This document shows positions 850-29,600 of a DNA stretch of 48,349 nt, in pieces. A program made the position numbers and the translations under genes. Position 1 is the stretch's first letter; every line of letters starts with the position of its first letter. The notes beneath the pieces were generated by a model. The model did not search any database and had not been told where the DNA came from. It was given only the letters and a program-made list of their open reading frames with translations. This stretch comes from Emiliania huxleyi CCMP1516 (lineage: Eukaryota). The stretch spans positions 252,815-301,163 of the forward strand of contig NW_005201327.1 of assembly GCF_000372725.1 (NCBI RefSeq), written 5' to 3'.

Positions 850-949
850 CGCGCGTGGTAGGCCGCAAGACGACCGAAGGCCTCTGGTACCCCTGCCCTG
901 CTGATGTGGATCAAAATCGAGCGGATCGCCGCCTTTGGTACCCCAAGGT
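850..949. repeat. 100-bp block identical to 5301-5400; probable shared promoter segment
   Basis: Base-for-base identity (cgcgcgtggtagg...accccaaggt); contains two gcct(c/t)tggtacccc motifs. Confidence 0.95.
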
Positions 950-1072: not shown

Positions 1073-2594
1073 ATGGCCGCCAGCTCCGACAACGCCGGCA
1101 ACGCCAGCGCCGAAGGCCCATCTCTCCGCACAGTCGTCTGCGGCCTCTCCCTGCCGTCGTGCGTCTTCAACTCGTCAAACCCGTTCGCAACATCACTCGA
1201 GGACCTCCAGGCGCTCGACGCCTCCGCCGCCGGCGCCGTCGCCACGCGCACCGCGTGCCCCGGCTTTGTGCACGATGAGGCTACGATGAAGTGGGCCTCG
1301 CCTGACGGCGCAAACACGATCAACTGCCTCGGCTACTCGCCGCTCCCGTTCGAGTACTACACGGGCTGCCTGCCGCAGCTCTCCGGCGCCAAGCCCTGCT
1401 GGCTCTCCATCTCTGGCAGCGCGGAGGAGGTTGGTGCGATGGTGCGCGAGGCTGCAGCGCTGGCACCGTCCCTGCCAGGCGGCCTCGCGGTGGAGATCAA
1501 CCTCTCGTGCCCAAACATCGCCGGCAAGCCTCCCCTCGCGTACGACTTTGACGCGCTGCGAAACTACCTCGGCACCGTCTTTGCTGCCGGGCCGCCGCCG
1601 CCGACCCTCGCGGTCGGCGTCAAGATGATGCCGAGTTCTTATTAGTAGTAGCATCATCATCACCATCTTCTTCTTCTTCTAGGTCGGCGTCAAGACGACG
1701 CCCTATTTCTACGACGCGCAGTACACCGGCGCCGCCGCCGTGCTGAACGGCTGCCCGCACCTGTCCTTTGTCACCGCCATCAACACGGTCGGCAACGGCC
1801 TCTACGTCGACGTCGCCACAGAGGCGCCCCTCCTCGCTCCCAGCTGCTACGGCGGGCTGGGCGGCGCCGCGGTGCACGCCGTCGCCCTCGGCAACTCACA
1901 CCATGAGCTATCAACACCATTAGCTATCATGACTCATAACAGGTGCACGCCATCGCCCTCGGCAACTCACACCATGAGCTATCAACACCATTAGCTATCA
2001 TGACTCATAACAGGTGCACGCCATCGCTCTCGGCAACGTGCGGAGGCTGCGTGCGCTGCTGCGGCCGTCGATCGCCGTCATCGGCTGCGGAGGAGTCGAC
2101 TCTGGGGAGGCTGCCCTGCCCCTAGAAGCGGAAGACGTACGCGCACTCTTGTGTGTGGGGAGAGGTATCCCCTTACCTTACCTCAGGCTGCCTTCCGCCA
2201 CCTGCTCTGCGGCGCCTCGGCGGTGATGGTCGCCTCGGCGCTCCTGCACGAGGGCGTGGGCGTCTTCGCGAGGGTCGAGGCAGAGCTGCGCGGCATCATG
2301 GCCTCCAAGGGCTACTCCGCCGTCGCAGACTTCCAAGGCGATCTGGGGAGATCTGGGGAGATCTGGGGAGATCTGGGGAGACTCCACCACGCCTCCGCAT
2401 GCCCCGCCCCTCCTCACGCCCCGCGCCTCTCTCTGTATGCGCCCGCGAGGGTGCCTCCCTATCCCATCTCCCCATCTCTCCCCAGCTCTCCCCAGCTCTC
2501 CTCATAGGCAAGCTGAGGGAGCCAGCCGCACCGCAGCAGCGCGCCGCCGCCCCGTGCGCCGGCCTCGCGCCCCCTGCCACCAACGGCCGCAGCA

Positions 2595-2632
<38 letters not shown>

Positions 2633-5600
2633 AGCGGCGGCGGCGGCGGCGGCGGCGGCAGCGGCAGCGGCGCCAACGGCCGCGCGTTCGTCGCGCCGGA
2701 ACACATTCGAGCTGCCAACGGCGCCGCGGCCGACAAGTTCGCCTCTTTCGCCCAAGTGCCTGTGGTGGACTTTGGCGCCTTCTACTCTGACGACGCGGCG
2801 GGACGGGCGACGCTGGCGGCGCAGCTCTTCTCCGCCTTCAAGGAGATCGGCTGATCTCGGCTGATCTCGGCTGATCCTCGGCTGATCCTCGGCTGATCCT
2901 CGGCTGATCGCGGCTGATCTCGGCTGATCTCGGCTGATCTCCGCCCCCAAGGACATCGGCTTCGCCACACTGATCAACCACAACCTCCCTCCGGAGCTCA
3001 ACGCTCGCGCGTTCGCGCTGTCCGAGGCTTTCTTTGCTCTGCCGGCCGCGCAGAAGGCTGCGTACGGGTGGGAGAGCCCCGAGTCGAATCGAGGCTACCT
3101 CGCGCTGGGCAAGGAGCGCCTCGACGGCGGGCTAATCTCGGCGAATCTCGGGCCATCTCGCCTGAGCTGCGCCAATCCTGCNNNNNNNNNNNNNNNNNNN
3201 NNNNNNNNNNNNNNNNNNNNNNNNNNNNNNNNNNNNNNNNNNNNNNNNNNNNNNNNNNNNNNNNNNNNNNNNNNNNNNNNNGGGTGGCGGGGGGGAGGTG
3301 GGGGGCTAAGAGTGGTAGACTCCCGCGCCTCGCTCCGCGCGCGTGCCCGGGATGAGGTTGTCCAGGAGGACACCCGCGAGCAGCGAGACGATCATCGTGT
3401 TGCTAAAGAAGACCTGGGACACCGAGAGATGTGGCCGAGATGTCGCCGAGTTCTGGCCGAGATGGAGAGCCGAGATGGAGAGCCGAGATGGAGCCGAGAT
3501 CAGCCGTGATCAAGCCGATGTGGCCGAGATGTCGCCGCCGAGCTGCCGGGCGGCCGCAGTTGCCGCCTTTGTGTTTTGGGCGTCCGAGCACGGCTCGCCC
3601 CACGGGCCGGTGTTGGCAAAGTAGCCGGCGGGCCCGCCCAGCGCGAGGCCTACAAATAACGAAACTCTGTGCTAGGAGACGGGTACGAAGGGGGCTCGGG
3701 TCCCCGCCCAGCGAAAGGCCGTTGTAGATGCAGAAGCCGAGGATGAACAGGTTGCGCGACGAGTTGAGGTCGACGTGCTGGAGCTGCGCGAGGCCGCAGG
3801 AGCAGATGAGGCCGAACAGGCACATGTAGAGACCGCCCACGAGCCAGCCAGGCATCGCGGCGAACACGGCGCCAAACTTGGGGAAGCAGCCCATGAAGAT
3901 CATCGTGCACGCGCCCGCTTGCACAACGGCGCGCGAGCCAACCTTGGTGACGCCGAGCGCGCCGATGTTCTCGCCGTACGAGGTGGTGCCGTTGCCGGTG
4001 CCGATGAGGCCGCAGAGAATGAGTCCCCACCTACGCGTGCCACAGCCGCAGCTCTGCGGACAAGCTTCAGAAGACCGGCCACAGAGGGCACTGCTAGCAC
4101 ACGCGCCCTTCTCCTGCGAGGCCGCGCGAGATGACGGGACCCGACGGCGGCGGGGCGCCCGCGAGCTGCGCGGCGGCGTAGTAGTCTCCGATCGACTCGA
4201 CCATCGAGACGAGCATGGCGGCGATCATGGGCAGGATGGCGCACTTGTCGAAGATGGGCGCGCCCCACTGACCCGGGTACGGCCACCTGAACCACTTCGA
4301 GTCCTCGATGACCTGGCTCGACGTCTTGCAGATCGCGTAGCGCCCGCCGAGGTAATCGTCGTCCATGCCGCCGGCCGCCTGCGCGATGGCGCCGATACCC
4401 CACGCCACCATCACGGTCCACAGCACCGGGAAGAGCGCAAAGATCTTGATGCTCGCTCCCCCGATCTTGAGGTTGACGAAGCCGAGGAGCTGCGAGAAGA
4501 CTACCATGCAGATAATGACCGCCGCGGCATATCCCTCGCAGCCGGGCACGGGCAACGGACGTTGGAAGTTCCCGTTAATGTTTGGGGCAGTATACAGCCC
4601 GAGCCCAACCATGCACACGGTCGGGGCGATCGTGAGCGGCGAGATGAAGCGTGTGAGCAGGCCGAGCACGCCCGAGTAGCCAAGAGCAACCTGGATGAAG
4701 CCGCACGTCAGGATGGCGCCTTGGATGCGGCGCATCGTCTGCTCGAACTGCTCCTCCGCGCCGATCTCTCCGGAGGCGACCATCGCCCTGACCTGGCCGA
4801 TGACGGCAAAGGTGGGGCTCAAGAAGGCAAAGGAGCCGCCCTGCACGATGGGCAGCCGGTCCCCGATGGTGGTCTGAAGGAGTGTGTTGCAGCCGGAAAC
4901 GAAGAAGATGGTGCAGATAACCTCGGCCATCTGCGTCGGCGTGCCGCCCATCTCCGGCACGATGAGGAGGGGGATGAGGGCCGTGGCGCCGAGCATGGTG
5001 AGGTAGTGCTGCGGCGGAGGCGGGGAATGGTGAGGCGGTACCAGAGGCAGGCGGCTTGCGCGGAGCGGCGGGATACCTGGAATCCGAGGATGACGCCGAG
5101 GTAGGCGGGAGGCACGTCACTGACGGTGTACAGCATGCCGCCATTCTTTGCCTGTGAGGAGGAGCAGGAGTCGCCGCGGCTCGGATCGGCGTCAAGCGGC
5201 GGCGGCGGCGGCGGTGAGTATTAAGCATACGGCGGCCGCCGACTACGCGAGTGGTGCAGCGTGTGTGTGCACACCTTCTGTTTGAATGACTTGTCCATGA
5301 CGCGCGTGGTAGGCCGCAAGACGACCGAAGGCCTCTGGTACCCCTGCCCTGCTGATGTGGATCAAAATCGAGCGGATCGCCGCCTTTGGTACCCCAAGGT
5401 NNNNNNNNNNNNNNNNNNNNNNNNNNNNNNNNNNNNNNNNNNNNNNNNNNNNNNNNNNNNNNNNNNNNNNNNNNNNNNNNNNNNNNNNNNNNNNNNNNNN
5501 CCACTCTCTCGGCCACTCTCGGCCTCTCGGCTACTCTCGGGCTCCTCTCGGCCAATCTCGGCTCCTCGCGGCCACTCTCGGCTCCTCTCGGCCAATCTGC

Positions 5601-5850
5601 TCTCTGATCTGTGTGAGCACAGGTGCTCTGCGACCCGCGCTGCGAGGGCGAGGAGGTGCCCGCGCGCTACTCGATTGCCTTCTTTTGCAACCCGAACAAG
5701 GCGACGCTCGTGCAGTGCCTGCCCGGCTGCAGCGGCGAGGGCAACCCGCCCCGGTACGCGCCGATCAACGCCTTCGAGTACATCACGCGCCGGCTCTGCG
5801 GCACCATCGACGATCCGATTACGGGCCAGGGACACCGACGGGGCGAGTAG
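1073..5850 (+). CDS. Fusion: class-1A DHODH-fold flavoenzyme (dihydrouracil oxidase-like) + Gly linker + IPNS-family 2OG-Fe(II) dioxygenase (thymine 7-hydroxylase-like); middle exons lost in gaps
   Basis: Exons ~1073-1612, 1683-1871, 2014-2109, 2187-2337, 2508-2842, 2952-~3130, 5623-5850. DHODH motifs EINLSCPN, VGVKTTPY, INTVGNG, GGLGG, IGCGGV, DFQGKLR; continues in frame into VPVVDF...GFATLINH...ESNRGY and RYSIAFFCNPN (RxS). HxD motif not visible. Confidence 0.8.
3324..5298 (-). CDS. NCS2/NAT (xanthine-uracil permease, SLC23-like) nucleobase transporter; 3' end runs into gap
   Basis: Spliced start MDKSFKQK|AKNGGMLYTV; FQ|HYLTML, LPIVQGGSF, ESIGDY, signature ENIGALGVTKVGSR, LDNLIPGTRAERG; many hydrophobic helices. 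Confidence 0.9.
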
Positions 5851-6955: not shown

Positions 6956-7159
6956 GTACTTTTAGCTTACTCTCTCTCTCCCAGTAAAGTCCACCCCGGT
7001 TTTCGCCCGCGGGAATCGCCGTAACGCGGTCACTCAGCCAGACCACGCTCGCCCCTTCACGTGAACGGCACAAAGTAGGCCGGCCGCGGTTTTAGCCCGT
7101 TTAGCCCGTCGTCGTCTCCGCCCGTGTTCCCCGGCTTGGCACGCGCGGCGAGGGCCACA

Positions 7160-10080
7160 ATGTTGGCGCGAGGCATGGCCCGGGCCCTCTCAGCAACCTC
7201 GGCAGACACAGCCGACGTCGACGCTGGCTTTGAGCATGCACACGGCCTTGAGGTTCGGCATGACCCCGTACTGCGCCCCTCCCAACCCTAGCCTGACAGC
7301 TGAAGCCCGCTCACCGAGCAAAAGCCCTTGCACCACCGCAAGAGGCGGACGCCGCGAGTCTTGCCAGTCCCTCACGTCGCGTGCACTCCACCACTCTCAG
7401 GTCGAGTTTGACGACGTGGTCATGTCGTTCCTCTTCCTGATTGCCGTGTGGGTGGGGGGCAAGGCGGCGGCGGGTATGCGGATGCCGTCGCTGGTGGGCG
7501 AGCTTGCCGTGGGCCTTGTGATGGGGCCGCCACTCCTCGACGTTGTTCCGCTCGCCGAAGCGCTCATGCTCTACGGAGAAGTCGGACTGCTGCTGTTGGT
7601 GCGCCGCTGCCGCCCCTCCGCCGTGCGCCGCTCCCAGTGGACGCCAGGCATCGGAATCCAGAAGGCGGCTGCGGCGAGCTCTGAACTCCTGTCCACCCGC
7701 AGCGCACAGAGAGCGCTGCGACACAGCCACCGACGGAATCTCATGCGTCTGCGCATGCCGGCGCAGGTGCTCGAGGCGGGCCTCGACGCCGACCTGCCAA
7801 TGATGCGCACCGTCGGCCCGCGCGGTGTCGCAATCGCCCTGTGTGGCACCTGCCTGCCCGTGTGCATCGCCGCCGGGCTTGGCCGCGCCGTGCTCGGGCT
7901 CGACCGCACAGATGCCAAATCCTAGCCCTGTGACTGTGAGAGGCAAGCATCCCCGTGTCCTCCCGGTGGTCCGCAGTGCGATGGACAGCTGCGCTCACGC
8001 CGCGTGAGCCCCGCCTCCTAGTCGAGATGTGTTCCGACGCGCATGGCCACGCCAGGGCTGCAGCACCGCACGCGAAAACGCTACCTTTGACCGCCGGCTC
8101 CCACCGGGTAGGCTCGACCCTCTCGCCAGCCTCGCCGCGGGGTGCACGCTTGCGCCCTCCTCCATCGGCATCGCGCTCAACGTGCTCCGCGCCGCGGACG
8201 CGCTCAACACGCCGGTTGGCCAGCTGATCATCGCCTCCGCCGTGCTGGACGACGTGATCGCGCTGCTGCTGCTCACTCTGCTGCAGGCGCTCGGCTCGGA
8301 CGCCTCGCCCGCATCGATGGTCGCGCCGGCGGTCGCCTCGGTTGGGCTGATGGCGGCGGCGGTGGTCATCGCAAAGCATGGGACCCCGCGCCTTGTCCGG
8401 CTCGCCGAGCGGGTCGCTCCTGCGCAGCTGCGGAGCGGGGGCCGTGCCGCCGAGGAGCGGGCGCTGCTGTTGCTGCTGCTGCTAGTCACGGCTGTCTTTG
8501 TGCCTCTGGCGCGCGCCTTTGCTCCGCTGGAGAGCTGGAGAGCCTTCGAGACGTACGCCGCGACGTGCCACGTCCCCTCTAGGCGCATTCGCTCGGGTCC
8601 AGTCATTTGCTCGGCGCTTTTCTGGCCGGGCTTTCCTGCTGCACCATCCCGCGGCTGCACGACGCGTGGATCAAGCAGGTCAAGCGGCTACAGTCGTGGC
8701 TCGTCAAGCTCTTCTTCGCTGCCACGTGCGGATTCATCGTCCCGGTCCGCTCCTTTGCTTCCGCCACCGTCTTTGGCCGTGCCGCACTTTTCAGGTGCTG
8801 CGGAGCTCGATCGCACGACCGAATCACCGTCGCCACGCCCACCCGCTTCACCCCCTCCCCCCACCCCCCTCCCCGCTCCTTCCCCAGCTGCGCCGGCCTC
8901 GGCAAGCTCGCGTCGGGCTTGCTGGTGGTACCTGCATCGCGCGCCAATGTGTTAACGGTCGGCCTCACCATGGCCGCGTGGGGTGAGTTCGCTTTCATCG
9001 TCGCGACCGCCTCGCTCAACAGCGGCCTGCTCGACCAGACGACCTTCGCCGCGCTGCTGCTCGCTGTCCTCGCGTCGGTGGTGATTGCGCCGGTGCTCGC
9101 GCGCGCCGCCCTCCGCGGCTCGCAGAGGCGGAAAGAGCGCGCCATCCTCGACGCCATCAAGGGGGGGCGACGAGCTGGCGCGCGCGCGGGGCCGGTGGTG
9201 GACGTGTCAACAGCGCCCGTCTTCTTTCGGCTGCGCACGTCGGCGCCACCAGCGTGGGGGCTGAGCGTGCGGCTGATGGATCTGATTCGGCAGCACGGCC
9301 TCGAGGCGCGCGTGCAGCGTCCCTTTGCACTTGGGATCTGCGCGGGGATCCAGCTTGATGCAACAGGGAATAGCTCGGCGCTTACCCAGTGGTCCTCCGC
9401 ACGTTGCCTCAGGTCCTCGACTTTCGCTCGCACCAGTACGCTTCGGCTATCCTCTTTGAGGTCCGCTAGTATGGCCTAGAGATCAACAGAGCGAGTTCTC
9501 CAATATCTCGAGCAATGTCTCCCCGCAGGTCCACCTCAAGGATGCCGACTTGCGCGCCCCGCCGACGCGTGCTTTGAGCGCCGACGACGAGGCGGTTGTG
9601 CGGCGGCGGCAGTCCGACTTGCTCGCTATCTTTTCGCCCCTTTGCGGCGGAGGAGGCTCGTGCGTGCTCGAGCGGTGGCTCCCGGGAGAAGCGCTCGCCT
9701 CGCGGCTGCCGCGCGCAGGGGTAGAGCCGGCGCAGTCGCATCTCGCGCAGGCGCTCGAGGGAGAGGAGGACACGGACTTCGCAGAGAGCTCGTACAAGTG
9801 TGCTGCCCGCTCGGCGTCGCGCGACGCCTTCTCCCTCACGGGTGCCGGGACTAGGCTTGGCGCTTTTTGTGGCGGTGGCGGCGGCATGGGCCCGCCTTCG
9901 CCGCGGATCGCAGCGCCGGCTTTTGCACGGGGCGGCGGCGGCGATCGTGGGGTTGACGCGGTGATGCCTTCGTCTCCGAGGCCGCCAGAGTTACACACGG
10001 AGCTGACTGGGGAGCCGCTGGTGCGTCCCTCGCGGCGCGGCGATTCGCTTCCCTCGCCCGACGAGCGCCAGTTCGTCTGA
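7160..10080 (+). CDS. Cation/H+ antiporter (CPA2, Kef/NapA-like), multi-exon
   Basis: MPSLVGELAVGLVMGP, GEVGLLLL|VLEAGL, APSSIGIA, ASAVLDDVIAL, LGAFLAG, LFFAATCG, WGEFAFI. Confidence 0.85.
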
Positions 10081-15227: not shown

Positions 15228-18200
15228 CTCGAAGAAGAATTCTCCGCTTGCTCACAAAAATGTGTTCACTTGTAGTGAGCGTCGGGCTGGTGGTTCGACA
15301 CCGAGTTTGAAAGATCTGTTTCTCTACGTCTCTCTTCACAGGAAAATCCTGTGAAGAAAAGCGGAGAAAAAAACAGAAACCTTTTCTGCCTCGGCCTTAG
15401 CCGTCGGTACTCCGAAAGCGTGCTATCCAAGTAGCACGCAGCCGGGTCCCGAAGGTGTCCCATCCCAAATTCGTGCTGTCGACAGACCAGATTCGTGGTC
15501 CTTTGGTCGACTACACCCGCCTTTGGACGGTAGCCCGACACAATACATTTGTCTGTCTTTTTGGATTTTTTGGTTCGTCTGGGTAAGGGTTTTGCAAGAA
15601 ACCTCCTCACCACTGCGAACACTGTCTTGCTCGTAGGAGCCGTTCGCCCTTTGTCCGAGCAAACGCGCGTCCGATCACCCCGTTGAGCACGTGTGCAGGG
15701 TATCCGAGCGCCATGAACTCCCTGAGTTTGCTCGTCACGCTGAGCGCGAACCCTTCGTCATCGCTCGCCATAGCACTCACCTTGAGCAGGCATCCAACGA
15801 CTATTCCCTCTTTCATCTTCGCGCATGTGAAGCTATCCCAGCGATGGTAGCGCCACACCCGAGGCTCTCTCTCGCAGCCCTCATTGACGTTCTTGAGTCT
15901 CGTCCGGAAACCTCCGTTCGCGTCGAGCTCGAGAGCCGTCTCTAAAAAATGAGCGTTATCGGCTGCCTCCAGCTTCAAAGGCGCCCAGTAGCATTCAGAA
16001 CGACGGAAATCCTCCCGGAAACGATCGACATCCCATGCGTTATCGTCTTTGGCAGTCACCGTGATCACATCGTCCATGTAGCGCTTCATACGGAAACGCG
16101 CTTTCGCATCATCGTCGAGCGTTTGCATCCACTCGTGCTCCATCCACGCAAGAGTTCCTATCGCCAGTGGTGGCGATAGCGCACTCCCCATTGGAATTCC
16201 GCGGGTTTGTTTCAGCAAGCGTCCGTCATACGTAATGACATAGCAGTTATCCAGATCGAAATCGATTACCTCGAGCATCGTCGAGAAGTTAATCGACGCG
16301 TGTCCCCACACTTCCCCTTCTTGTGCCCACGAGCACTTCTTCTTGCCTCTTTTCGGTACAAGTATTTTCGGGTCCTCTCCCGCGCCCGGTGGCAGGTTCT
16401 GGCGTACATTGTGTAGAATATCCCTCATCGCCACCTGCATCGCTTCCTTTGGCATGCTCGGGTAACAGCTGTCGACGTCGTTAATCTCGTAGCTGAGCTC
16501 TCCCTTCCCTTGGAGCGCTTCAGCCGCCTCCTTCAGCATCCGGGGTACACTTTGGCAGTCGTGCTGAATGAAGTGCTCACCCTTCAGGTGCCGGAGTGCG
16601 AAACTCCACGCCCGGCCCACGAGGCTCAAAAGTTTCGCCATCGGATGCTTCGCGTACGGCGTGATCGGCCTCGCCTTGTGCAGCTTCCGTTCTCGCACAA
16701 GAGGGTCAGTCACATTTTTTGCCTTATACAGCGCGTACGGCGCAGTTATCCTTCCTTTGCTATCGAATTTAGTGATCTTGTGCCATCCCTTCTTTCTGTA
16801 GAACCATCGCCATGCAGAGATTAGCGTCGCGTCGAGCGTACCGTCAGTACTCAGCTGGTTCGCCCGTACTCGCGACCGATCCTCCGTCGTCATATTCTTG
16901 AGCAGATCCTCAGCTCCATGCTTCTTCCTCTTATATGACGTGTCCTTCAGAGGGTACATGCGCGTATAATTGCCGTTTGAAGTGTTGAAGAGCGCGTCCA
17001 GCGTCTTCTCGTACGTGACGGGGCACGTAACAAAACACTCTCCGACATTCTTGTCCAGCCATCCTATCACGCTACCTCGCAGGACGCTCTTCACCTGCAC
17101 AACCTGGTTCGAAGTAACCGCGTCTTCGCATGGTACACACGTCTCGTCCGTCTCCGCAAGTGTCTCCTCGAGTACCTTCTTCCAGTCGCGATCTCTCCCC
17201 GCTTCTCGTACGCTCGCGGGAAGGCTTCCGAGTGCCTTATCCCATGCTACACGCATGTCTCTCTCGGTTGGGATGGGCACGTTTTTATTGCTCCGACGTA
17301 GGACTTCGGCGTGCGGGCCGTTGTATTCACGTCCAATGCAGAAGATATGCCCTTCCGCCATCGGCAGAGGCTCGAACCCGAAAGACGTTAGTCGCTGCTG
17401 TATCGCCTGACAGGCGCACCGCTGCGGTCTTTTTGGGTCACTGACATTTGAGAGCCGTTCAATGATATTTTTCTGCCGTACCGTCACTATCTTGATCCTT
17501 TGGCAGTGCCACTCGATTATGTGTTCCGGCCAGGGTTGCCTCCGTACTAGTTCATCGAGGTAGGCTCGAAGCGGGCGAGCGTCGACTCCTGGTACGAAAG
17601 GCAAGCGCACCTCAATCGTATTACGTGTGAGCCCTTCGTATCTGGTCTCGTACTCCTTCCATAGCACACGACGCATCTGTAACCATGTGGATTTGTCGAG
17701 GTACTTCCCTCTTTTCCACAGGCTCATTTCTTTTTCGGTCAGATTGCAAACTTCTTTTCCGACGTCCCTGAAGAAGTCTGCCGACGAGGCATCCTCCGTC
17801 CTCACAAACCATGCACTGCTCGCCAGCAGGAAAGCAGCACTACTCGGCTCTTCAAAGGGAGTGCTGTTCAAGCGTCTCGCCGTCACGGTGAAACTTCCGT
17901 GGTCTTCGCCGTGCCGTATCGCTGCCACTCCGTTACTGAAGCTCGTTGTTTCCCCGGTGTGCGTTGCGATGTCCCAGTGAGCAAACCTCATCCTTAGGTA
18001 CCGCCAGTTGGAGACGTCCTCGCTGCCCATGCGGTAGCAAACAACAAGGTTCATGCTCTCGCCTACCATACTCTCCTCTGCTTCCCGCAGGATTGTGCCA
18101 AGGTTGCAGCATTTGCGCGTTTCACCTTCCCGCCAAAACCATGTGAAGCCAAACCGGCTCTGTCTCTCCGTACTGGACCCGCCCCTCAGCCGGAGGACTC

Positions 18201-19074
18201 TTCGGAGCGGATTTCTCCATGGCGGAACGCCAGGTCTCCTTCGGGTCCTCTCTGCCCGGTTCTGTTTCCTCATCTCTTCTTTGTATGTAGGCTGGCTGTT
18301 CCTACCTGTGCGTCTCTTCTCCTCCATATTGAGCTTTGACCGCAATGTGCGGATTAGCCTCCCCTCCATTCGCACTGCTTCACGCTTGCTCGCACACACA
18401 GCTAGCGGTACAGTAAACCACGTATGCGGGCGTGCAGCGCGGTGCGCCACATACCTCGCATGTCCACCGCACCCTTTCCCGCTGCAGGCATGGTACTCTC
18501 GTGAATGCCGTACGGTCCCGGTGAAGTGCTGCTCCTGTCGGCGACGCCAGAACTCGGTTTCGCCGATATAAATCGCTTTTGTGCCGTCGAGGCTGAATCT
18601 AGCATAGACAATCGCGCGCGTGTCCTCGGTCTGAACCTCCTCTGCGCTCTGTATGAAGTCTGCGAGTCGCTCTATAGCAGGAATGCGTACTGCCCGTGTA
18701 AGCGCCTTGATCCACGGCTGTGCTAGGGTGTGAAGCTCAGCAACCCATCGCTTGGCTTTCGTCTGTACCCTAGTCTTCTCTCCATTCCCCTTCGGAAGGC
18801 AAAATTCCTTCACAAAGGCTTGAGTCGCCCAAATTTCCCGTAAGATGAAGCCAGCCATTGTAAAGCACACTGGCACGACAAGACCATCCGGATCAATCTG
18901 CCGCGTCCTCCGTACGCAGCAGTCCCCGCGATGGCCCACAGTCCTCCGCCACCAGGTTGAACCCCCTCCCCCCCCAGTCCTCGTACTCGACCAAGCCTCA
19001 TCAGTTACTAATTCCACGCATTCCTCCCCTCCACCTCCCACCTCAGCAATCATTGTCCAATGTCACGCATGCCA

Positions 19075-19077
<3 letters not shown>
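15228..19077 (-). mobile_element. Penelope-like retroelement, N-terminal-endonuclease (Naiad/Chlamys) type; boundaries approximate
   Basis: Single long intronless ORF, visibly lower GC than flanks, hairpin-rich 3' region, abuts (CT)n. Confidence 0.85.
15607..18858 (-). CDS. GIY-YIG endonuclease - CxC linker - reverse transcriptase polyprotein (likely start MAGFIL; frame open from 19053)
   Basis: IVYARF...IYIGET..RRRQEQH...E...LN; CACQ...GHIFC; LDKN...VTCP; RPIT; DVDSCYPSM; QTRGIPMGSALSP; RYMDDV; FLE. Confidence 0.92.
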   Translation of the reverse strand: MAGFILREIWATQAFVKEFCLPKGNGEKTRVQTKAKRWVAELHTLAQPWIKALTRAVRIPAIERLADFIQSAEEVQTEDTRAIVYARFSLDGTKAIYIGETEFWRRRQEQHFTGTVRHSREYHACSGKGCGGHARYVAHRAARPHTWFTVPLAVCASKREAVRMEGRLIRTLRSKLNMEEKRRTGRNSQPTYKEEMRKQNRAERTRRRPGVPPWRNPLRRVLRLRGGSSTERQSRFGFTWFWREGETRKCCNLGTILREAEESMVGESMNLVVCYRMGSEDVSNWRYLRMRFAHWDIATHTGETTSFSNGVAAIRHGEDHGSFTVTARRLNSTPFEEPSSAAFLLASSAWFVRTEDASSADFFRDVGKEVCNLTEKEMSLWKRGKYLDKSTWLQMRRVLWKEYETRYEGLTRNTIEVRLPFVPGVDARPLRAYLDELVRRQPWPEHIIEWHCQRIKIVTVRQKNIIERLSNVSDPKRPQRCACQAIQQRLTSFGFEPLPMAEGHIFCIGREYNGPHAEVLRRSNKNVPIPTERDMRVAWDKALGSLPASVREAGRDRDWKKVLEETLAETDETCVPCEDAVTSNQVVQVKSVLRGSVIGWLDKNVGECFVTCPVTYEKTLDALFNTSNGNYTRMYPLKDTSYKRKKHGAEDLLKNMTTEDRSRVRANQLSTDGTLDATLISAWRWFYRKKGWHKITKFDSKGRITAPYALYKAKNVTDPLVRERKLHKARPITPYAKHPMAKLLSLVGRAWSFALRHLKGEHFIQHDCQSVPRMLKEAAEALQGKGELSYEINDVDSCYPSMPKEAMQVAMRDILHNVRQNLPPGAGEDPKILVPKRGKKKCSWAQEGEVWGHASINFSTMLEVIDFDLDNCYVITYDGRLLKQTRGIPMGSALSPPLAIGTLAWMEHEWMQTLDDDAKARFRMKRYMDDVITVTAKDDNAWDVDRFREDFRRSECYWAPLKLEAADNAHFLETALELDANGGFRTRLKNVNEGCEREPRVWRYHRWDSFTCAKMKEGIVVGCLLKVSAMASDDEGFALSVTSKLREFMALGYPAHVLNGVIGRAFARTKGERLLRARQCSQW

Positions 19078-19129
<52 letters not shown>
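19078..19129. repeat. (CT)n microsatellite
   Basis: Directly visible. Confidence 0.97.
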
Positions 19130-19132
<3 letters not shown>

Positions 19133-19169
19133 CGGGCCCCCCTGCCCCCCAAAAAGCCGGAACCCAGCG

Positions 19170-21119
19170 ATGGTGAGTGCACGCGCGCTTGGCGGCCCGC
19201 CGAGTGCACGCGAGCTTAGCACCGGCGCAGGATCCCTGAGCTGCTCCGACGCGGCCGTGCTGGCGGCGGAGCGTGGCGAGGAGGAGGCGGTGCTGGCGTG
19301 GCTCGAGGGCGGCGGGCGGGTCAACGCGACGTACGAGAGAGGCGGCTTGAGCGGCCTCACGCTGCTGATGGGCGCCGCCTCCAAAGGCCACGAGCGGATG
19401 GTCGAGCTGATGCTCCGGCGTGGGGCGGATGTCAACCTGCAGAACAGCCGCGGCGACACCGCGCTGATGGACGCCGCCGTCAGAGGCCACGAGCGGGTGG
19501 TCGAGCTGCTGATTCGGCACGGTGCTGAGGTCAACCTGCAGGACAGCGTCGGCTGCACCGCGTTGATGCTCGCCGCCCACCACGGTCACGAGCGGGTGGT
19601 CGACCTGCTGATACGGCACGGTGCTGAGATCAACCTGCAGAGCAGCGACGGCGGCACCGCGCTGATGCTCGCCGCCCACAGCGGCCACGAGCGGGTGGTC
19701 GACTTGCTGATACGGCACGGCGCTGAGGTCAACCAGCGGAACAGCGACGGCGGCAAAGCGCTGATGATCGCCGCCCTCCAAGGCCACCCCGCCGTCGTGC
19801 ATCGCTTGCTTCGGGCTGGCGCGGATACAAAGGCTCGCTCTGCAGACGGCTGGTCCGCGCTGGAGATCGCCAAGGAGAAGGCGGCCAAGGTGCTAGCTAC
19901 TGCCGACGCCGCCAGTGCTCCTGAAACGGACCACGCCGGGTGCGTGCGCGCTCTCACAGAGCACGCAGCGGCGCTGAGGGAGGCGCAGGCGGCTGAGAAG
20001 GCGGCCGAGAAGGCGCTAGAGGCCAAGAGGCGGCGCGAGCAGCGCGAGCGGGAGGAGGCGGCGGCGGCGCGAGAGCGCGAGCAGGCGGCACGACAGCGCG
20101 AAGCAGAGCGAGCGGCGGACGAGGCGCGGCGAGCGGCGGACGCGGCGGCGCTGGAGGAGCAGAGGCGAGCCATTGCGGCGGAGGCGGAGGCGAAGCTGGC
20201 CGCTGAGCGCGCGGCAGCAGAGGAGACGCTGCGGGCGAGGGAGGCGGAGAGGCTTGCGGCGGAGGAGGCGCAGCGAGAGGAGCAGCGGGCGGCCGCGGCG
20301 GCGCGCAAAGCCGCTCAGGCAGAGGCAGCGCGGCGCGAGAAGGAGGCTGCGGACAGGAGGGCGGAGGAGGAGAAGGCGAGGCGGCGCGCAAAGGCGGCGG
20401 AGGCAACGGCGGCCAAGAAGGAGGCCAAGGCGAAGAACAATAAGGCCAAGAAGGCGCCGTCTGCTTTCGCGCTCGAGGAGGAGCGGAGGGCAAAGGCTGC
20501 GGCAGAGGTTCGCGCACAGGAGGAGAGGGCGGCGCAGCTGGCTGCTGAGCAGGAGTCGGCGAAGCGGGCGGAGCGCGAGGCGGCAGAGCTAGCGGGTGCG
20601 GCAGAGCGGGCGGCGCTGCGCGAGGATGCGGAGCTGGCAGAGGCGCTGCTCCGGTCAGAGGTGGATGCGGAGGAGGCGCTGGCGCGTCGGGTGTCGCGGT
20701 GCGAGGAGGCGGTGAGCAGTGAGTCGACCGGCGGCGGCGGGGACTTGCCGCGGCGTGTCGATCGGCTGGAGGCGAGCCTCGGCGCGGCGACCGAGGGTAG
20801 CCTCGAGGAGCGGGTCGGCGCAATCGAGCGCTTGATCGAGCCGGAGGCGGGAGAGGCGGCGGAGCAGCATCTGCCAGTCACCGAGCCGCTTGCTGCCGTC
20901 TCACTAGCCGACGCCGGCCTCGACACGGGGCGGCCGGCTGCCCCCGAGTCCACGATGGGGGGCGAGACCACGTGTATCGTGTGTTTCGCGAGAGTCAAGT
21001 CGCATGCTGCGGTTCCGTGCGGGCACCTGTGTGCTTGCGGGCCATGCTCTGAGCTGATGCGAGAGTGCCCTTACTGCCGCGAGCCAGTGATGATGTGGAT
21101 GGTTCCGCGTCCGGTCTAG
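19170..21119 (+). CDS. Ankyrin repeat + coiled coil + C-terminal RING (C3HC4, IAP-like) protein, intronless
   Basis: Repeated G.TALM.AA..GHERVV.LLI.HGA.VN; E/A/R-rich helix; CIVC...PCGHLCACGPC...CPYCR. Confidence 0.9.
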   Translation: MVSARALGGPPSARELSTGAGSLSCSDAAVLAAERGEEEAVLAWLEGGGRVNATYERGGLSGLTLLMGAASKGHERMVELMLRRGADVNLQNSRGDTALMDAAVRGHERVVELLIRHGAEVNLQDSVGCTALMLAAHHGHERVVDLLIRHGAEINLQSSDGGTALMLAAHSGHERVVDLLIRHGAEVNQRNSDGGKALMIAALQGHPAVVHRLLRAGADTKARSADGWSALEIAKEKAAKVLATADAASAPETDHAGCVRALTEHAAALREAQAAEKAAEKALEAKRRREQREREEAAAAREREQAARQREAERAADEARRAADAAALEEQRRAIAAEAEAKLAAERAAAEETLRAREAERLAAEEAQREEQRAAAAARKAAQAEAARREKEAADRRAEEEKARRRAKAAEATAAKKEAKAKNNKAKKAPSAFALEEERRAKAAAEVRAQEERAAQLAAEQESAKRAEREAAELAGAAERAALREDAELAEALLRSEVDAEEALARRVSRCEEAVSSESTGGGGDLPRRVDRLEASLGAATEGSLEERVGAIERLIEPEAGEAAEQHLPVTEPLAAVSLADAGLDTGRPAAPESTMGGETTCIVCFARVKSHAAVPCGHLCACGPCSELMRECPYCREPVMMWMVPRPV

Positions 21120-24113: not shown

Positions 24114-26600
24114 CGAGGAGGAGGAGGAGGGGGGCGGAGGGGGGAGGAGCAGGAGGAGTCGGACGTGGGCGCCACGCGTCTCGATCACTCCGTGGAGGAG
24201 CCATGATGTAGAATGAAACTCGCTCTGCTGGTTGTCATCTCTGTCAACGGCGAGCTGTAGACGGTTCGGTGTGAACTCAAACTCACTCACTCTCAAAAAG
24301 TCTTTTCGCTCACTCGAGGTTCTCGAGGTTCTCGAGGTGGATATCCTTTGGCCGCGTTGGGTAGCGAGGATTGGTGTAACCCGAGCCACGGAGGCGTGTT
24401 TTCTGGCGGCCGACCGTCAGTGCACGGAGTTGCCACTTCTCCGACTGCCCCGGCTAGTTCCCGAGTTTCGCGGGAGTGACCCCATGCGTCAAACCCGAGA
24501 CCTAGCGCGGGTGGGTTGGAGGGGGCTCGCCCCGTTCCTCCCCATCGGGCCGCATGAGCGGCCACGCCTCGCAGATTCGTTTTCGCGCCTGGGTCAGGCG
24601 CGCGGGGCATCCCCCGGGTCGCTCGACCAGCGATCCGAAGAGTGGCCGCTATGCGAGGGAAAGAGTGGGGCCCTCGACGCCTCAGTCCGGCCCTCCGAGG
24701 GGGGAAGGGAATTGCGGGGTCCCCACGGGCGCCTCAGTTCGGCCCTCCCGAGGGGGGGGAGGGGAGCAAGGGGGTGGGGGGATCGGGGCGGGGGGGGAGG
24801 GGTCTCGGTTTCGTGTGGCTAATACTTGCCTTTCGGGGAGGGGCCTCCGTTCATCGCGACTGGGCCGCTCGGGATGCAGCCCCGCGCTCTCCCCGCCCCG
24901 CCCTCCTCCTCCCTCCCTCCCTGCCTCGACCCTCTTCCACGCGCCCGTCGCCCGTCGACGTCGCGCTGTGGCTGCCAGCCTGGCCCGGCCCCGCTCGGGT
25001 GCTCCGCCCTCCGCCCTCCGCAACCGCAATCCGCATCTCTGTCCCGTCACGGGGACGCGAGTCGCGCCGTGAATTACGGCTCGGCTTTACAAATTACAAT
25101 AAAATCAACTTCCATCAAACCCCCGTGCCCGGGTACTGTACCGTGGAGCGTGGTAAAGTAGTGCGACTACTAATAGCCTCTACCCAGCACCCCCGACCCC
25201 CGTAGCCGTACGCGCTCAAGAGGCACGACCCCCACGAGGGGGGTCGCAACTTCGCAGCCGGTGGCAACACTACAGGCTTGTATTATGGATCTTGGATGCC
25301 CGAGTAGGACCATCTGCTAGTGGCTCAAGTATCACTTTCAGGTGTAAATTAGGCAAACGCGGTTCTAGGTTAGGCCTGTTTAACGTTTTACATTACATAG
25401 GTCATCAGGAAGAGCAAGAGGTTGCACAGGGCTAATGGGCTCGTGCAAGCCTTGCGTCGCACAGGAACGGGGTAGCGCCCGCATCTTTCATCCCGCGAAT
25501 TTTCTCGTGCGGACGGCCCGCGCGCACCCACATACCCGGTTTCCTCAGCACCAGCGTGTCATTGTCCACCTTGCTGCTGGCTGCGTCGAAGACTCCCGCG
25601 CAGCCATTCATGTTCGGGCCGTGGAACTGGTGCATNNNNNNNNNNNNNNNNNNNNNNNNNNNNNNNNNNNNNNNNNNNNNNNNNNNNNNNNNNNNNNNNN
25701 NNNNNNNNNNNNNNNNNNNNNNNNNNNNNNNNNNNGCGGGCAAGCAAGCGGGGAGCGGCGGGCCGACGCGGCGGAGCGGGCGGGCAGGGTTATCGGGGGA
25801 ATCGTGTCCACAATCAGCGGCAGCGGAGCAGCAGCCGCAGCAGCAGCTGCTGCAGCAGCAAGCAGCAGCCAGATTGCTGCCGTTGTCTGCGCCGCGATCC
25901 GCCGCCGCGTCGCCGCGCCGCCGCCGCCTGCGCTCGCCGCCGCCTCGTAGACGACTCCTCTCGCGCTCGGAGAGCCGCGCAGCGGGCCGCGAGGTTGTGG
26001 TCAGAGAGCAGCAGGGTTGAGATCCACAAAATCGGCCAAATTTGAGGTTGCTCGAGAGAGCCTGGAAGAATGGTCCCGCGCCGTTGCCCCGGTGCCGGCG
26101 CATCACGTCTCAGCCGCGATGGGCCGGTTCCGCCGCGCAGTCGAGCAGCAGGAGCTCGGAGGCAACTTTGTCGACAAACTGGTCGAGCCAAAAATCGGCG
26201 AAGAAGCGGCACTGGCGGCACGCCGGGACGAATCCGGACTGATCACATTGTTCGGCACCGCGGCGGCGAGCCGCCGCGAGCCCACAGGAGAGCTGGGCGC
26301 CGCGGCACCAGACCGCGCCGCCAGCGAGGCGAGAGCACCAGCCGACCGGCCGTGACATGGCAGTTAGACGGCGGGAGCCCGTAATCCAGAAGGTGTGGCC
26401 AAATTTCTCTCTCGATCTTTTTCTTTATCTGTTGTGGAGAGAGAGAGTTTATCTGTTGTGTTCGATCCTTATCTGTTGTGTTCTCGCGCAGCGACTGTTC
26501 GCAGACCTAGTGGGCAGCGTTGTGCCGGAGATGCGAGCACGTCGCTCGCGCCGTCTTTTTGTGCTTGTTTTTTCTTTTCTCGCTGGAGGGGCGCCAAAAA

Positions 26601-29600
26601 ATGCCCGAGTCAGTGTGTGGCACGTCGCCTGCCGGGGCGCCGCTGCTTGGGCAGCGAGTCGAGCTCGGCGGGCTCTCCTCCCGCCCCGAGCTGAACGGGC
26701 AGCGGGGTGAGGCGCTGAGCTTCGAGGGCGGGCGGTACGCTGTGGCGCTCGAGGGCGGCGGCGAGAGCGTGCGGGTGCGGCCGGGTAATCTGTCGCCAGC
26801 GGTGTCGAGCGGTGGCGTGGCAGTCGCCGACGAGGTCGTGGCAGCGGCTGAGCGAGGCGAGGAGGAGGCGGTGCTGGCGTGGCTTGAAAGTGGCGGGCGG
26901 CCTGACGCGACGTACAAGAGAGGCAGCGTGAGCGGCATCACGCTGCTGATGCCCGCCGCCGGCGCAGGCCACGAGCGGGTGGTCGACTTGCTGATTCGGC
27001 GCGGCGCTGAGGTAAACTTGCAGAGCAGCAAAGGCGTCACCGCGCTGATGGGCGCCGCCTTCAACGGCCACGAGCGGGTGGTCGACTTGCTGCTGCAGCA
27101 CGGCGGTGAGGTCAACCTGCGGGACAGCCTCGGCTCCACCGCGCTGATGCACGCCGCCTGCTTCAACCACTCCGCCGTCGTGCGGCGCTTGCTGCGGGCG
27201 GGCGCAGACACGGCGGCGCGCAGTGCGAACGGCAAGACGGCGCTGCAGTTTGCCAAGGAGCAGAGCCACGCCGAGTGCGTCGAGGCTTTCAGGCAGCACG
27301 TCAAGGAGTCGGTCGTGGCGGGACGGCCCACTGCGGCGGTAGCCGGCGGCGCAGGCGCAGGCGGCGTTTCCTCCGGCGGCGCTTCCTCGGCTGGATCGAG
27401 AGTCGCGAAGACGCTCTCTCCAGCGGGGGCGGCGGAGCAGGCGTCGAGCGGTGTCGTGGCAGTCTCCGATGAGGTCGTGGCAGCGGCGGAGCGAGGCGAC
27501 GAGGAGGCGGTGCTGGCGTGGCTCGAGGGCGGCGGGAAGGTCAACGCGACGTACGAGAGTTACTCCGAGAGAGGCGACGCGAGCGGCCTCACGCTGCTGA
27601 TGAAAGCCGCTGTCCACGGCCACAAGCGGCTGGTCGAGCTGCTGCTGCAGCACGGCGCGGACATCGATCTGCAGAGCAGCACCGGCACCACCGCGCTGGT
27701 GGGCGCCGCCCTCCGGGGCCACGAGCGGGTGGTCGACTTGCTGATTCGGCGCGGCGCTGATGTCAACCTGCAGAGCAGCGAGGGCGGCACCGCGCTGATG
27801 AACGCCACCACCAACGGCCATGGGCGGGTGGTCGACTTGCTGATACGACGTGGTGGGGCGGAGATCAACCTGCAGGACAGCGGCGGCAACACCGCGCTGA
27901 TGTACGCCGCCGCCCACGGCCACGAGCGGGTGGTCGAGTTGCTGCAGCACGGGGCGGAGCTCGACCTGCAGAACAGCAAAGGCTACACTGCGCTGATGTT
28001 CGCCGCCAGCCGCAACCACCCCGCCGTCGTGCGGCGCTTGCTGCAGGCGGGCGCAGACGCGACGGCGCGCAGCACGAGCGGCAAGACGGCGCTGCAGTTG
28101 GCCAAGGAGAAGGGCTTCGCCGAGTGCGTGCGCGCCTTCGAGGAGCACTCGTCGGCCGCAGCAGAAGCAGAGCGGGAGACGGCGGTGGCAGAACAGGCCG
28201 CGGCGGCCGCACGCGAGGTGGCAGCGGCTGCGGAGGCGGCGGAGGCGCGCGATGCTGCCGAGGCGGCGCTGCGCGAGGCTGTGGAGGCGTGCGAGCGAGG
28301 CGACGCCGATCTCGAGGCGCTCAGGGCGGTGATCAACGCGAACGTCGAAGCCGCCGACGGCTCGGAGGCGTTACGGGTGGCGCGGCGGCTGTGCGACGAG
28401 CTGGCGGAGCGAAGGACCCGCGAGGCGAGGGCGCTGAAGCGGCAGCGGCAGAAGGAGGAGAAGGCGGCGGCGAGGCAGGCGGCGGAGGAGGCGCGGGCGG
28501 CGGACGAGGCGCGGGCGGCGGAGGAGGCGCGGGCGGCTGAGGAGACGCGAGTGGCGGAGGAAGCGGATCGGGTGGTAGCAGAGATTGCGGCGGCGCGGGC
28601 GGCAGAGGAAGCGGAGGCGGCGTCGCGGGCAAGGGAGGAGGCAGAGGCGAGGGCAAGGGAGGAGGCGGCAAGGGAGAGGGAAGAAGCGAGGGAGAGGGCG
28701 GCGACGGAGGCGGCGGCGGAGGCGGCGGCGGAGGTGGCGGCTGTAGAGGCGGCCGTCGCGGCCGTGGCGGCGGCGGAGGCTCAAGAGGCGGCGGCAGCGG
28801 AGCCGTCGGCAGCGGCGGCGGCAGCGGTGGCTTCGGCGAGTGTCGCCACCCTCGCCGCCGCCGCCGCGCCGCCCGCCGCCGTCCCTCTCGACGAGCTCAT
28901 CGCAGCGACGGACGGCTTTGCCGAGGCGCGCAAGGTGGGCGAGGGAGGCTTCGGGCGCGTCTACCGCTGCGACGCGCTGCCGTCGCTCCTGCGCGTCGCT
29001 TGCGGGTTCGCCGTCAAGACGGCGCTGGTCGGTGTCGGCGCCCAAGGCCTCGCCGAGCTGCAGAGCGAGGTGCGCACGCTCAGCGCGGCGTGTCACCGGT
29101 CCCTGCTCCCTCTCCTCGGCGTCTGCTTGGCGCCGGCGAGAGCGTGCCTCGTCTACCCCCTCTGCCGCGGCGGCAGCCTCGAGGACCGCCTCTACCGCTC
29201 GCCAGCCGCACTGCAGCGGCTCCGCATGCTCGGCTTCGAGACGCCGCCTCCGCCGCTCTCCTCTGCCGCACGGCTCCGCGTGCTGCGCGACGCCGCGAGC
29301 GCGCTACATTACTTGCACACGCGCTCTCCGATGATCCTGCACCGCGACGTCTCGGCGGGCAACATCCTGCTCGACGAGCGCGGCAACGGCTACCTCGCCG
29401 ACGTGGGCCTCGCGCGCGCGGCAGACGCGACGGCCGGCAGCAATGGACAGGTGTCGCACCTGTCGACGCAGCGCCTCTTCGGCAAGCTTGGGTACATGGA
29501 CTCGATCATTTCGCAGAGCGGGCAGGCGTCGCAGCTGACCGACGGCTTTGCGCTCGGCATCACTCTGCTTGTCGCCCTGACCGGCCGCGGCGCCGTCGGC

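What the first reader, a model, noticed from the sequence alone, without database searches (positions are those of the whole stretch)
1073..5850. Dihydrouracil-oxidase-like flavoenzyme fused to a thymine-7-hydroxylase-like dioxygenase
Seen: after the usual DHODH end (DFQG|KLRE) the frame stays open through a poly-Gly linker into a DIOX_N domain. The flavoenzyme has NSSNPFATSLEDL, ATRT (Arg where class-1A DHODHs have TKS), GFVHD and INCLGYSP. Recalled knowledge: these motifs resemble fungal Ura1 homologs shown to be dihydrouracil oxidases, and GWESPESNRGY / RYSIAFFCNPN resemble Neurospora thymine 7-hydroxylase. Inference: one polypeptide could oxidise dihydrothymine/dihydrouracil to thymine/uracil and then thymine towards 5-carboxyuracil, i.e. 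a two-step salvage enzyme for reduced or damaged pyrimidines. I do not know of this fusion being described.
Basis: partly seen in the sequence, partly recalled or inferred. Interest (0 to 1): 0.88.

Follow-up and report, generated by a model that had tools for sequence, protein, structure and literature searches.

The report
Twice-evolved algal pyrimidine-salvage enzyme fusion
This algal gene joins a flavin enzyme of the dihydrouracil-oxidase branch to a dioxygenase closest to fungal thymine hydroxylase, and other algae carry the same pair in the opposite order, so it likely recycles reduced and methylated pyrimidine bases towards uracil, which would give a poorly understood enzyme family a pathway.

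Summary
The fusion is real. RNA-like contigs from four studies splice the flavoenzyme exons into the exon carrying the poly-Gly linker and dioxygenase start; the frame has no stop and no later Met. The dioxygenase middle (about 156 codons, including HxD...H) is missing from this assembly. A misplaced 2.1 kb contig with an NCS2 nucleobase permease sits in the gap, and one RNA contig bridges it in frame. A second species has the same fusion as one intron-free 676-aa frame, head-to-head with the same permease. Diatom-like proteins carry the pair in reverse order, and a single clade of fusions is rejected. The flavoenzyme groups with validated fungal dihydrouracil oxidases (100/100) and shares their diagnostic residues. 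The dioxygenase's best solved match is thymine-7-hydroxylase; the orthologue keeps 16 of 16 active-site residues, and a close relative lies beside an isoorotate decarboxylase. Likely role: salvage of dihydrouracil, dihydrothymine and thymine towards uracil. No activity was tested; electron acceptor and channelling are open. No description found in nine literature searches.

The parts
1073..1612 (+). Exon 1: start Met, N-terminal half of the FMN barrel (NSSNP, ATRT with Arg59, GFVHD, INCLGYS, catalytic SCPN with Cys146)
   Evidence: Pfam DHO_dh; RNA joint at 1611; residue table
1683..1871 (+). Exon 2 of flavoenzyme domain
2014..2109 (+). Exon 3 of flavoenzyme domain
2187..2337 (+). Exon 4, end of flavoenzyme domain; followed by a GC-AG intron
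   Evidence: joint 2335>2506 in 4 of 4 runs
2508..2842 (+). Exon 5: last flavoenzyme residues, linker with poly-Gly run (about 2590-2672; absent in the orthologue P0229), start of dioxygenase; no Met, no stop
2843..2951 (+). GA-AG intron; spliced in contigs of 2 runs, read through in contigs of 2 runs; retention would stop the frame at 2852-2854
2952..3130 (+). Exon 6: DIOX_N part with the NRGY motif (T7H Asn87 equivalent)
   Evidence: Pfam DIOX_N 7.9e-15; best PDB match thymine dioxygenase
3182..3281 (.). Assembly gap; with gap 5401-5500 it hides about 156 codons of the dioxygenase core
   Evidence: joint 3133>5622 with 468 letters between
3282..5298 (-). NCS2/NAT nucleobase permease gene (start Met at 5298; 3' end near 3400 not fixed exactly), on a misplaced contig; inferred true place head-to-head with the fusion, 225 bases from its ATG
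   Evidence: Pfam Xan_ur_permease 2e-40 and 5e-26
850..949 (.). 100 bases identical to 5301-5400: overlap that ties the permease contig to the region upstream of the fusion (likely shared divergent promoter)
   Evidence: self-BLAST
5623..5850 (+). Last exon: dioxygenase C-terminus with the RYSIAFFCNPN motif (T7H Arg286, Ser288, Phe292, Asn294 equivalents), Tyr324/Arg328 equivalents, stop
   Evidence: best PDB match thymine dioxygenase 1.3e-8

Best explanation
The gene encodes one spliced protein of about 729 residues in which a flavin enzyme of the dihydrouracil-oxidase branch is joined to a thymine-7-hydroxylase-like dioxygenase, and it likely works as a pyrimidine-salvage unit beside a permease predicted to import nucleobases. 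Inferred steps: the NCS2 permease imports bases; the flavin domain removes two hydrogens from dihydrouracil or dihydrothymine (catalytic Cys146, FMN re-oxidised most likely by O2, giving H2O2) to give uracil or thymine; the Fe(II)/2-oxoglutarate domain oxidises the thymine methyl group in three steps to 5-carboxyuracil; a separate isoorotate decarboxylase (not located in this organism) releases uracil for UMP synthesis. For dihydrothymine the two domains act in series, for dihydrouracil and free thymine (from DNA or from modified tRNA bases, inference) in parallel. Shown: gene structure, fusion, reverse-order fusion, family placement, gene neighbours. Inferred: all activities, substrates, acceptor and flux.
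For: Fusion: splice joints in 4 of 4 runs into an exon with no stop or Met; contiguous intron-free 676-aa orthologue, 64% identical over 485 aligned positions. Flavoenzyme: 100/100 clade with P. minimum XP_007917020.1 and M. mycetomatis KXX81961.1, which complement yeast ura1 only with dihydrouracil and oxygen (PMC10395836); Arg59 in 12 of 12 algal/protist rows and 40 of 40 fungal oxidase-side rows against Lys in 32 of 34 class-1A-side rows; same pattern at Ser34, His67, Tyr88, Ser89. Fungal enzymes oxidise dihydrothymine faster than dihydrouracil (PMC9585004 Table 2), so they make the T7H substrate. Dioxygenase: T7H best PDB match for the orthologue at 2e-69, next 2OG enzyme 1e-37; 16 of 16 listed active-site residues kept; 97/98 clade with Sordariomycete T7H orthologues. 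Context: head-to-head NCS2 permease in the second species (73% identical over 41 aa); NCS2-dioxygenase gene model in Chrysophaeum taylorii (P0151); sister-clade dioxygenase in locus L006 head-to-head with an isoorotate decarboxylase (PDB 5e-60). Reverse-order fusions with one clade of all fusions rejected, p-AU 2e-6.
Against: No activity measured for any algal member. HxD...H, Arg190 and Tyr217 of the window's own protein were not seen (assembly gap). No contig spans the poly-Gly repeat. The algal flavoenzymes are a sister branch of the fungal oxidases, are less diverged from class 1A (orthologue 263 bits against 99 for a Didymella protein on the class 1A model) and differ at Cys85, Thr186, Val216 and Gly240, so the acceptor may not be O2. 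Many T7H residues are family-wide: 21 of 160 rows score 16 of 16, but 102 of 160 score 14 or more, and the T7H-containing clade also holds fungal paralogues of unknown function. Unfused forms are common, even inside the same 90% clusters as the fusions, and none of the best 150 representatives was a full fusion, so fusion is not required. An isoorotate decarboxylase was not shown in this organism (no genome held). H2O2 made next to an Fe(II) site would be a liability (established chemistry).
Confidence: 0.66

Rival explanations
1. Same substrates but not an oxidase: the algal flavin domain passes electrons to fumarate or another acceptor, or runs in the reducing direction as a plant-PYD1-like first step of pyrimidine breakdown.
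For: Closer to class 1A DHODH than fungal oxidases are (263 against 99 bits); separate branch with its own residues; avoids H2O2 beside Fe(II). PYD1 comparison is recalled.
Against: Nested with validated oxidases at 100/100 and far from PreA/class 1B outgroups (NCBIfam PreA 57 bits); thymine hydroxylation plus decarboxylation is a salvage route (PMC4787775).
Confidence: 0.14
2. The dioxygenase acts on another pyrimidine substrate (for example a pyrimidine nucleoside sugar, or a thiamin-related methylpyrimidine) rather than free thymine.
For: Only about 40% identical to T7H by alignment; residue set is weakly specific; paralogues in the same clade. Orphan nucleoside hydroxylases in fungi are recalled, not tested.
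Against: 16 of 16 residues including Asn87, Glu122, Tyr217, Asn294 in the orthologue; neighbour isoorotate decarboxylase in a 95/97 sister row.
Confidence: 0.1
3. The flavin domain is a variant class 1A dihydroorotate dehydrogenase for de novo pyrimidine synthesis, fused by chance to a salvage enzyme.
For: Pfam and database labels say DHODH; best PDB matches of this domain are class 1A enzymes (no oxidase structure appears in the list).
Against: Lys needed for class 1A activity (K45A inactive, PMC10395836) is Arg; below the NCBIfam class 1A cut-off (263 of 301, orthologue); tree placement.
Confidence: 0.05
4. No functional fused protein: two neighbouring genes or an assembly accident, with the main product being the flavoenzyme alone.
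For: No contig spans the linker repeat; intron 5 is read through in 2 of 4 runs; stand-alone flavoenzyme records lie on 19 and 26 contigs against 1 each for listed fusions in the orthologue cluster.
Against: No stop or Met between domains; intron-free fused frame in a second species; linker-adjacent residues conserved with it.
Confidence: 0.05

Closest known systems
Fungal dihydrouracil oxidases (DHO/DHUO, EC 1.3.3.7; PMC9585004, PMC10395836)
   Same: FMN barrel with catalytic SCPN cysteine; Arg for the class 1A Lys; shared NSxNP, FxHD and LGYS positions; one clade in the tree
   Different: Described only as single-domain fungal proteins (plus some Pasteurellaceae sequences); here algal, fused to a dioxygenase, on a sister branch that is less diverged from class 1A; activity untested
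Neurospora crassa thymine-7-hydroxylase (PDB 5C3O-5C3S; PMC4787775)
   Same: Best solved match of both visible pieces and of the orthologue; 16 of 16 listed active-site residues in the orthologue, 7 of these readable and kept in the window
   Different: Single-domain and known from fungi; here fused, about 40% identical, lacks the roughly 12-residue insertion after the NRGY region (alignment)
Class 1A dihydroorotate dehydrogenase (L. lactis PyrDA, yeast Ura1, trypanosomatid DHODH)
   Same: Fold family, catalytic Cys and Asn residues
   Different: Lys43-equivalent is Arg; NAxG and SMGLP motifs replaced; below family cut-off; separated by a long 100/100 branch
Aspartate carbamoyltransferase-DHODH fusion of Neobodo saliens (P0190, UniRef label)
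   Same: A class-1-type flavoenzyme fused to another pyrimidine enzyme
   Different: True class 1A domain (425 bits), biosynthetic partner

Membership tests
Dihydrouracil oxidase (DHO/DHUO) | Groups with validated DHUOs apart from class 1A/1B DHODH | tested here: met
   100/100 clade of 22 rows including P0495 and P0453, rooted on 4 class 1B/PreA-like rows (long-branch warning on the outgroup)
Dihydrouracil oxidase (DHO/DHUO) | Catalytic cysteine in SCPN motif (C157A inactive in A. alternata) | tested here: met
   Cys146; paper passage
Dihydrouracil oxidase (DHO/DHUO) | Residues separating the oxidase side from the class 1A side (derived here, groups taken from the tree) | tested here: met
   Ser34, Arg59, Phe65, His67, Asp68, Tyr88, Ser89 shared with both validated enzymes
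Dihydrouracil oxidase (DHO/DHUO) | O2-dependent oxidation of dihydrouracil/dihydrothymine with H2O2 release | not testable with these tools
   needs enzyme assay
Class 1A DHODH | N-terminal Lys (L. lactis K43; K45A inactive in R. arrhizus) | tested here: not met
   Arg59; paper passage
Class 1A DHODH | NCBIfam NF002702 cut-off 301 bits | tested here: not met
   orthologue P0229 263 bits, reverse fusion P0121 255 bits; true 1A fusion P0190 425 bits; window full domain not scanned as one piece
Thymine-7-hydroxylase | Fe(II) triad HxD...H and Arg190, Tyr217 | tested here: inconclusive
   lies in the window's assembly gap; present in orthologue P0229
Thymine-7-hydroxylase | Asn87, Arg286, Ser288, Phe292, Asn294, Tyr324, Arg328 equivalents | tested here: met
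   window pieces aligned to 5C3P; residue list from PMC4787775
Thymine-7-hydroxylase | Same clade as fungal T7H orthologues | tested here: met
   97/98 clade of 48 rows with P0177 and P0179 (501 and 438 bits to 5C3P); clade also holds untested paralogues; N. crassa T7H itself not in the tree; window row 48% filled
Thymine-7-hydroxylase | Three-step oxidation of thymine to 5-carboxyuracil | not testable with these tools
   needs enzyme assay
Thymidine salvage pathway | Isoorotate decarboxylase in the same genome | not testable with these tools
   no genome held; none among 60 of 156 long frames of the window scanned with Pfam; found beside a related dioxygenase in L006
NCS2/NAT permease (neighbour) | Pfam Xan_ur_permease above cut-off | tested here: met
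   139 and 92 bits, cut-off 27; substrate not determined

The most novel reading that the evidence does not exclude
Dihydrouracil oxidase and thymine hydroxylase were fused independently, in opposite orders, in two algal lineages, and with a nucleobase permease they form an unrecognised route by which phytoplankton scavenge reduced and methylated pyrimidines into uracil; this would reveal the physiological job of the whole dihydrouracil-oxidase family, extend fungal thymine salvage to algae, and show fused and unfused forms still coexisting among near-identical proteins.
Probability: 0.5. Interest if true: 0.8.

Novelty: new variant of a known kind. Interest (0 to 1): 0.66.

Why it matters
The discoverers of the dihydrouracil-oxidase genes left their physiological role open and called the enzyme enigmatic (PMC9585004 abstract and discussion); a second paper suggested pyrimidine recycling without evidence (PMC10395836 discussion). 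A recurrent fusion with a thymine-hydroxylase-like domain, next to a nucleobase permease, is direct genomic evidence for a salvage role and gives a one-gene test in yeast. It also places both enzymes, so far studied in fungi, in abundant eukaryotic algae, where databases label the flavin domain 'dihydroorotate dehydrogenase (fumarate)', probably wrongly.

Tried and rejected
No whole genome is held, so gene content (isoorotate decarboxylase, class 2 DHODH, reductive pathway) is open. No run was on record as RNA; the four laid are 'RNA?' guesses whose intron-skipping joints show splicing. No DNA run was laid, so whether 1-849 is a second haplotype, an insertion at the permease start or a mis-join is open. 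Single-sequence AlphaFold of P0229 failed (mean pLDDT 37) and was not used. Atlas searches: no usable hit for P0229; generic amidohydrolase clusters for the L006 decarboxylase. Genome-contig scan returned only 4 class 1A DHODH loci, no bacterial oxidase. Bacterial relatives of the dioxygenase (L008, L013, L014; 38-41%) lie near an NCS1 transporter and base deaminases (28 frames scanned) but fall outside the T7H-containing clade, so they were not used as support. The second AU test was badly framed (unnamed class-1A-like rows were forced to the other side) and is not used; the first test's group was named after earlier trees were seen. Peroxisomal targeting: only 2 of 312 family rows end in a PTS1-like tripeptide, none of the fusions; idea dropped. 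Earlier scan findings: none. Trees were thinned: 86 rows from 312 candidates at 58% identity, 44 hand-picked rows, 59 dioxygenase rows of which 53 came from 160 candidates; candidates came from searches seeded with the fusions, so distant paralogues are under-sampled.
Full report
Setting. The window is GC-rich eukaryotic DNA with GC-AG introns full of short repeats; from recall this fits a coccolithophore-type haptophyte, but no tool named the organism and no genome is held.

Observation. The first 7.5 kb hold a DHO_dh domain in four pieces, a DIOX_N piece, and a final dioxygenase-like piece at 5623-5850. Contigs of four runs from four studies, guessed to be RNA, skip introns at 1611>1682, 1870>2013, 2107>2185 and 2335>2506 in 4 of 4 runs and at 2838>2948 in 2 of 4; the other two runs have contigs that read through that intron. 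Resolved splice sites are GT-AG, GT-AG, GC-AG, GC-AG and GA-AG. The spliced frame runs 496 codons without a stop, and its last Met is residue 313, inside the flavoenzyme, so the dioxygenase cannot start on its own. No contig crosses the GGC repeat 2577-2681, which the tool skips; contigs enter it about 40 letters from each side.

Assembly artefact. Between two 100-N gaps, 3282-5400 encodes an NCS2 permease on the minus strand. Its last 100 bases equal 850-949, which would put its start codon 225 bases upstream of the fusion, head-to-head. One contig of run X8 joins 3133 to 5622 with 468 other letters, which keeps the frame and gives about 729 residues; the orthologue has 158 residues in that interval. 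So the catalytic core of the dioxygenase is missing from this assembly, and the permease is not inside the gene. Whether 1-849 is another haplotype or a mis-join is open.

Relatives. Of 120 listed longer relatives of exon 1, 2 carry both Pfam domains (P0005, P0006), and both have the order dioxygenase-flavoenzyme, the reverse of the window. Their clusters hold 9 of 13 and 3 of 3 full-length members. A search with P0005 gave 89 proteins, of which 3 carry both domains; the third (P0147) has the window's order. Its cluster has 32 members, 15 listed, including four full fusions of 676-684 residues and stand-alone flavoenzymes with their own stop (P0228, P0231 read). P0229 is 64% identical to the window frame over 485 positions and lacks only the poly-Gly run. 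Its contig L005 shows one intron-free frame and, 280 bases upstream on the other strand, a permease 73% identical over 41 residues to the window's. A Chrysophaeum taylorii gene model joins an NCS2 permease to the same dioxygenase family (P0151; may be a merged model of neighbours). None of the best 150 representatives at 50% clustering was a full fusion, so the fusion is patchy.

Flavin domain. Two proteins in hand are validated oxidases: P0495 (P. minimum XP_007917020.1) and P0453 (M. mycetomatis KXX81961.1). In a 44-row tree rooted on class 1B/PreA-like rows, the window domain lies in a 97/90 algal group within a 100/100 clade with these fungal enzymes, on a long branch away from class 1A rows (the outgroup carries a long-branch warning; same split in the 86-row tree). 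Arg59 is shared by 12 of 12 algal/protist and 40 of 40 fungal rows, where 32 of 34 class-1A-side rows have Lys (2 gaps); Ser34, His67, Tyr88 and Ser89 follow the same pattern; the catalytic Cys is in all rows. The Lys is needed for class 1A activity (PMC10395836). The orthologue scores 263 bits on the class 1A model, below its 301 cut-off but well above a Didymella oxidase-side protein (99), so the algal enzymes are less diverged and their acceptor is uncertain.

Dioxygenase. Both window pieces match N. crassa thymine-7-hydroxylase best (1.3e-8 and 6e-8; next different proteins 8e-4 and 3e-3); the orthologue does so at 2e-69 against 1e-37. It keeps 16 of 16 residues listed in PMC4787775 for metal, 2-oxoglutarate and base binding; 21 of 160 related rows do, while 102 of 160 keep 14 or more, so the test is only moderately specific. 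In a 59-row tree the window row is sister to P0229 (100/92), in a 95/97 group with the L006 protein, inside a 97/98 clade with Sordariomycete T7H orthologues. In L006 this dioxygenase lies head-to-head with a gene whose best solved match is uracil-5-carboxylate (isoorotate) decarboxylase at 5e-60, the next enzyme of the fungal pathway.

Origin of the fusions. In both trees forward and reverse fusions sit in different subgroups with unfused relatives between them (for example the Amphora coffeiformis cluster). Holding the four fused flavin domains together is rejected (p-AU 1.8e-6; group named after seeing earlier trees). Two independent fusions are the simplest reading; an old fusion followed by fissions and a permutation is not excluded. 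Clusters of both fusion types also contain single-domain members at 90% identity, which may be alleles, paralogues or partial records.

Mechanism. Shown: gene structure, fusion in two orders, family placement, neighbours. Inferred: permease uptake; flavin oxidation of dihydrouracil and dihydrothymine (the fungal enzymes take both, the latter faster; PMC9585004 Table 2); thymine oxidation to 5-carboxyuracil; decarboxylation by an enzyme not located here. My rough odds: fused protein real 0.95, pyrimidine-ring substrate for the flavin domain other than dihydroorotate 0.85, T7H activity 0.85, O2 as acceptor 0.6, true channelling 0.3.

Literature. Read: PMC9585004 parts 1-4 of 7 and its one held supplement (the alignment figure and datasets S01-S03 were not available as text); PMC10395836 passages, section 22, first part of section 25, supplement 1 and a term search of 9 supplements; PMC4787775 passages. 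Others seen as listings only. Nine searches found three papers naming dihydrouracil oxidase and none describing this fusion or these enzymes in algae; subscription journals are largely not covered.

Verdict. A real, apparently undescribed fusion of two known enzyme types, recurrent in opposite orders, that points to a salvage role for an enzyme family whose role was left open. New variant of a known kind; interest 0.66.

Noticed in passing
window 15607-19062 (-): 1151-codon open frame with weak GIY-YIG (residues 151-245) before a weak reverse transcriptase match: Penelope-like retroelement with an N-terminal endonuclease (architecture name recalled, not tested).
   Followed up: no
window 850 / 5298-5301: The two copies of the upstream region diverge exactly 2 bases before the permease start codon, so one haplotype may have lost or displaced the permease from the shared promoter.
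   Followed up: partly
window 1613-1682, 1872-2013, 2110-2186, 2843-2951: Introns begin with near-copies of the next exon's first bases (splice joints ambiguous over 4-20 letters; a 96-base tandem overlap at 1871-2037), as if made by local duplication; one has a GA donor.
   Followed up: partly
clusters of P0147 and P0005: Fused and single-domain proteins share the same 90% clusters (P0228/P0231 flavoenzyme only; P0123/P0124 dioxygenase only; P0127 dioxygenase start joined straight to the flavoenzyme): possible fusion polymorphism.
   Followed up: partly
L006 325-2444: T7H-like dioxygenase head-to-head with an isoorotate decarboxylase in an unnamed 45% GC contig with an intron, apparently outside the fungal T7H branch.
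   Followed up: yes
L008, L013, L014: Bacterial T7H-related dioxygenases beside an NCS1 transporter, cytosine deaminase, 8-oxoguanine deaminase and cyanuric acid hydrolase genes; three paralogues in L014: possible base-salvage clusters.
   Followed up: partly
P0152, P0506, P0251: A sister group of the fusion's dioxygenase carries a different, unannotated N-terminal domain of about 170 residues.
   Followed up: no
P0001, P0276: Stand-alone flavoenzyme and stand-alone dioxygenase closest to the forward fusion begin with Arg/Ala-rich leaders resembling mitochondrial presequences (by eye).
   Followed up: no
window 7065-9479 (+), 18864-21119 (+), 26511-30170 (+), 39255-40523 (+): Na/H exchanger, two ankyrin-repeat genes and a BTB-BACK-SPRY gene; no other pyrimidine gene among the 60 frames scanned.
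   Followed up: no
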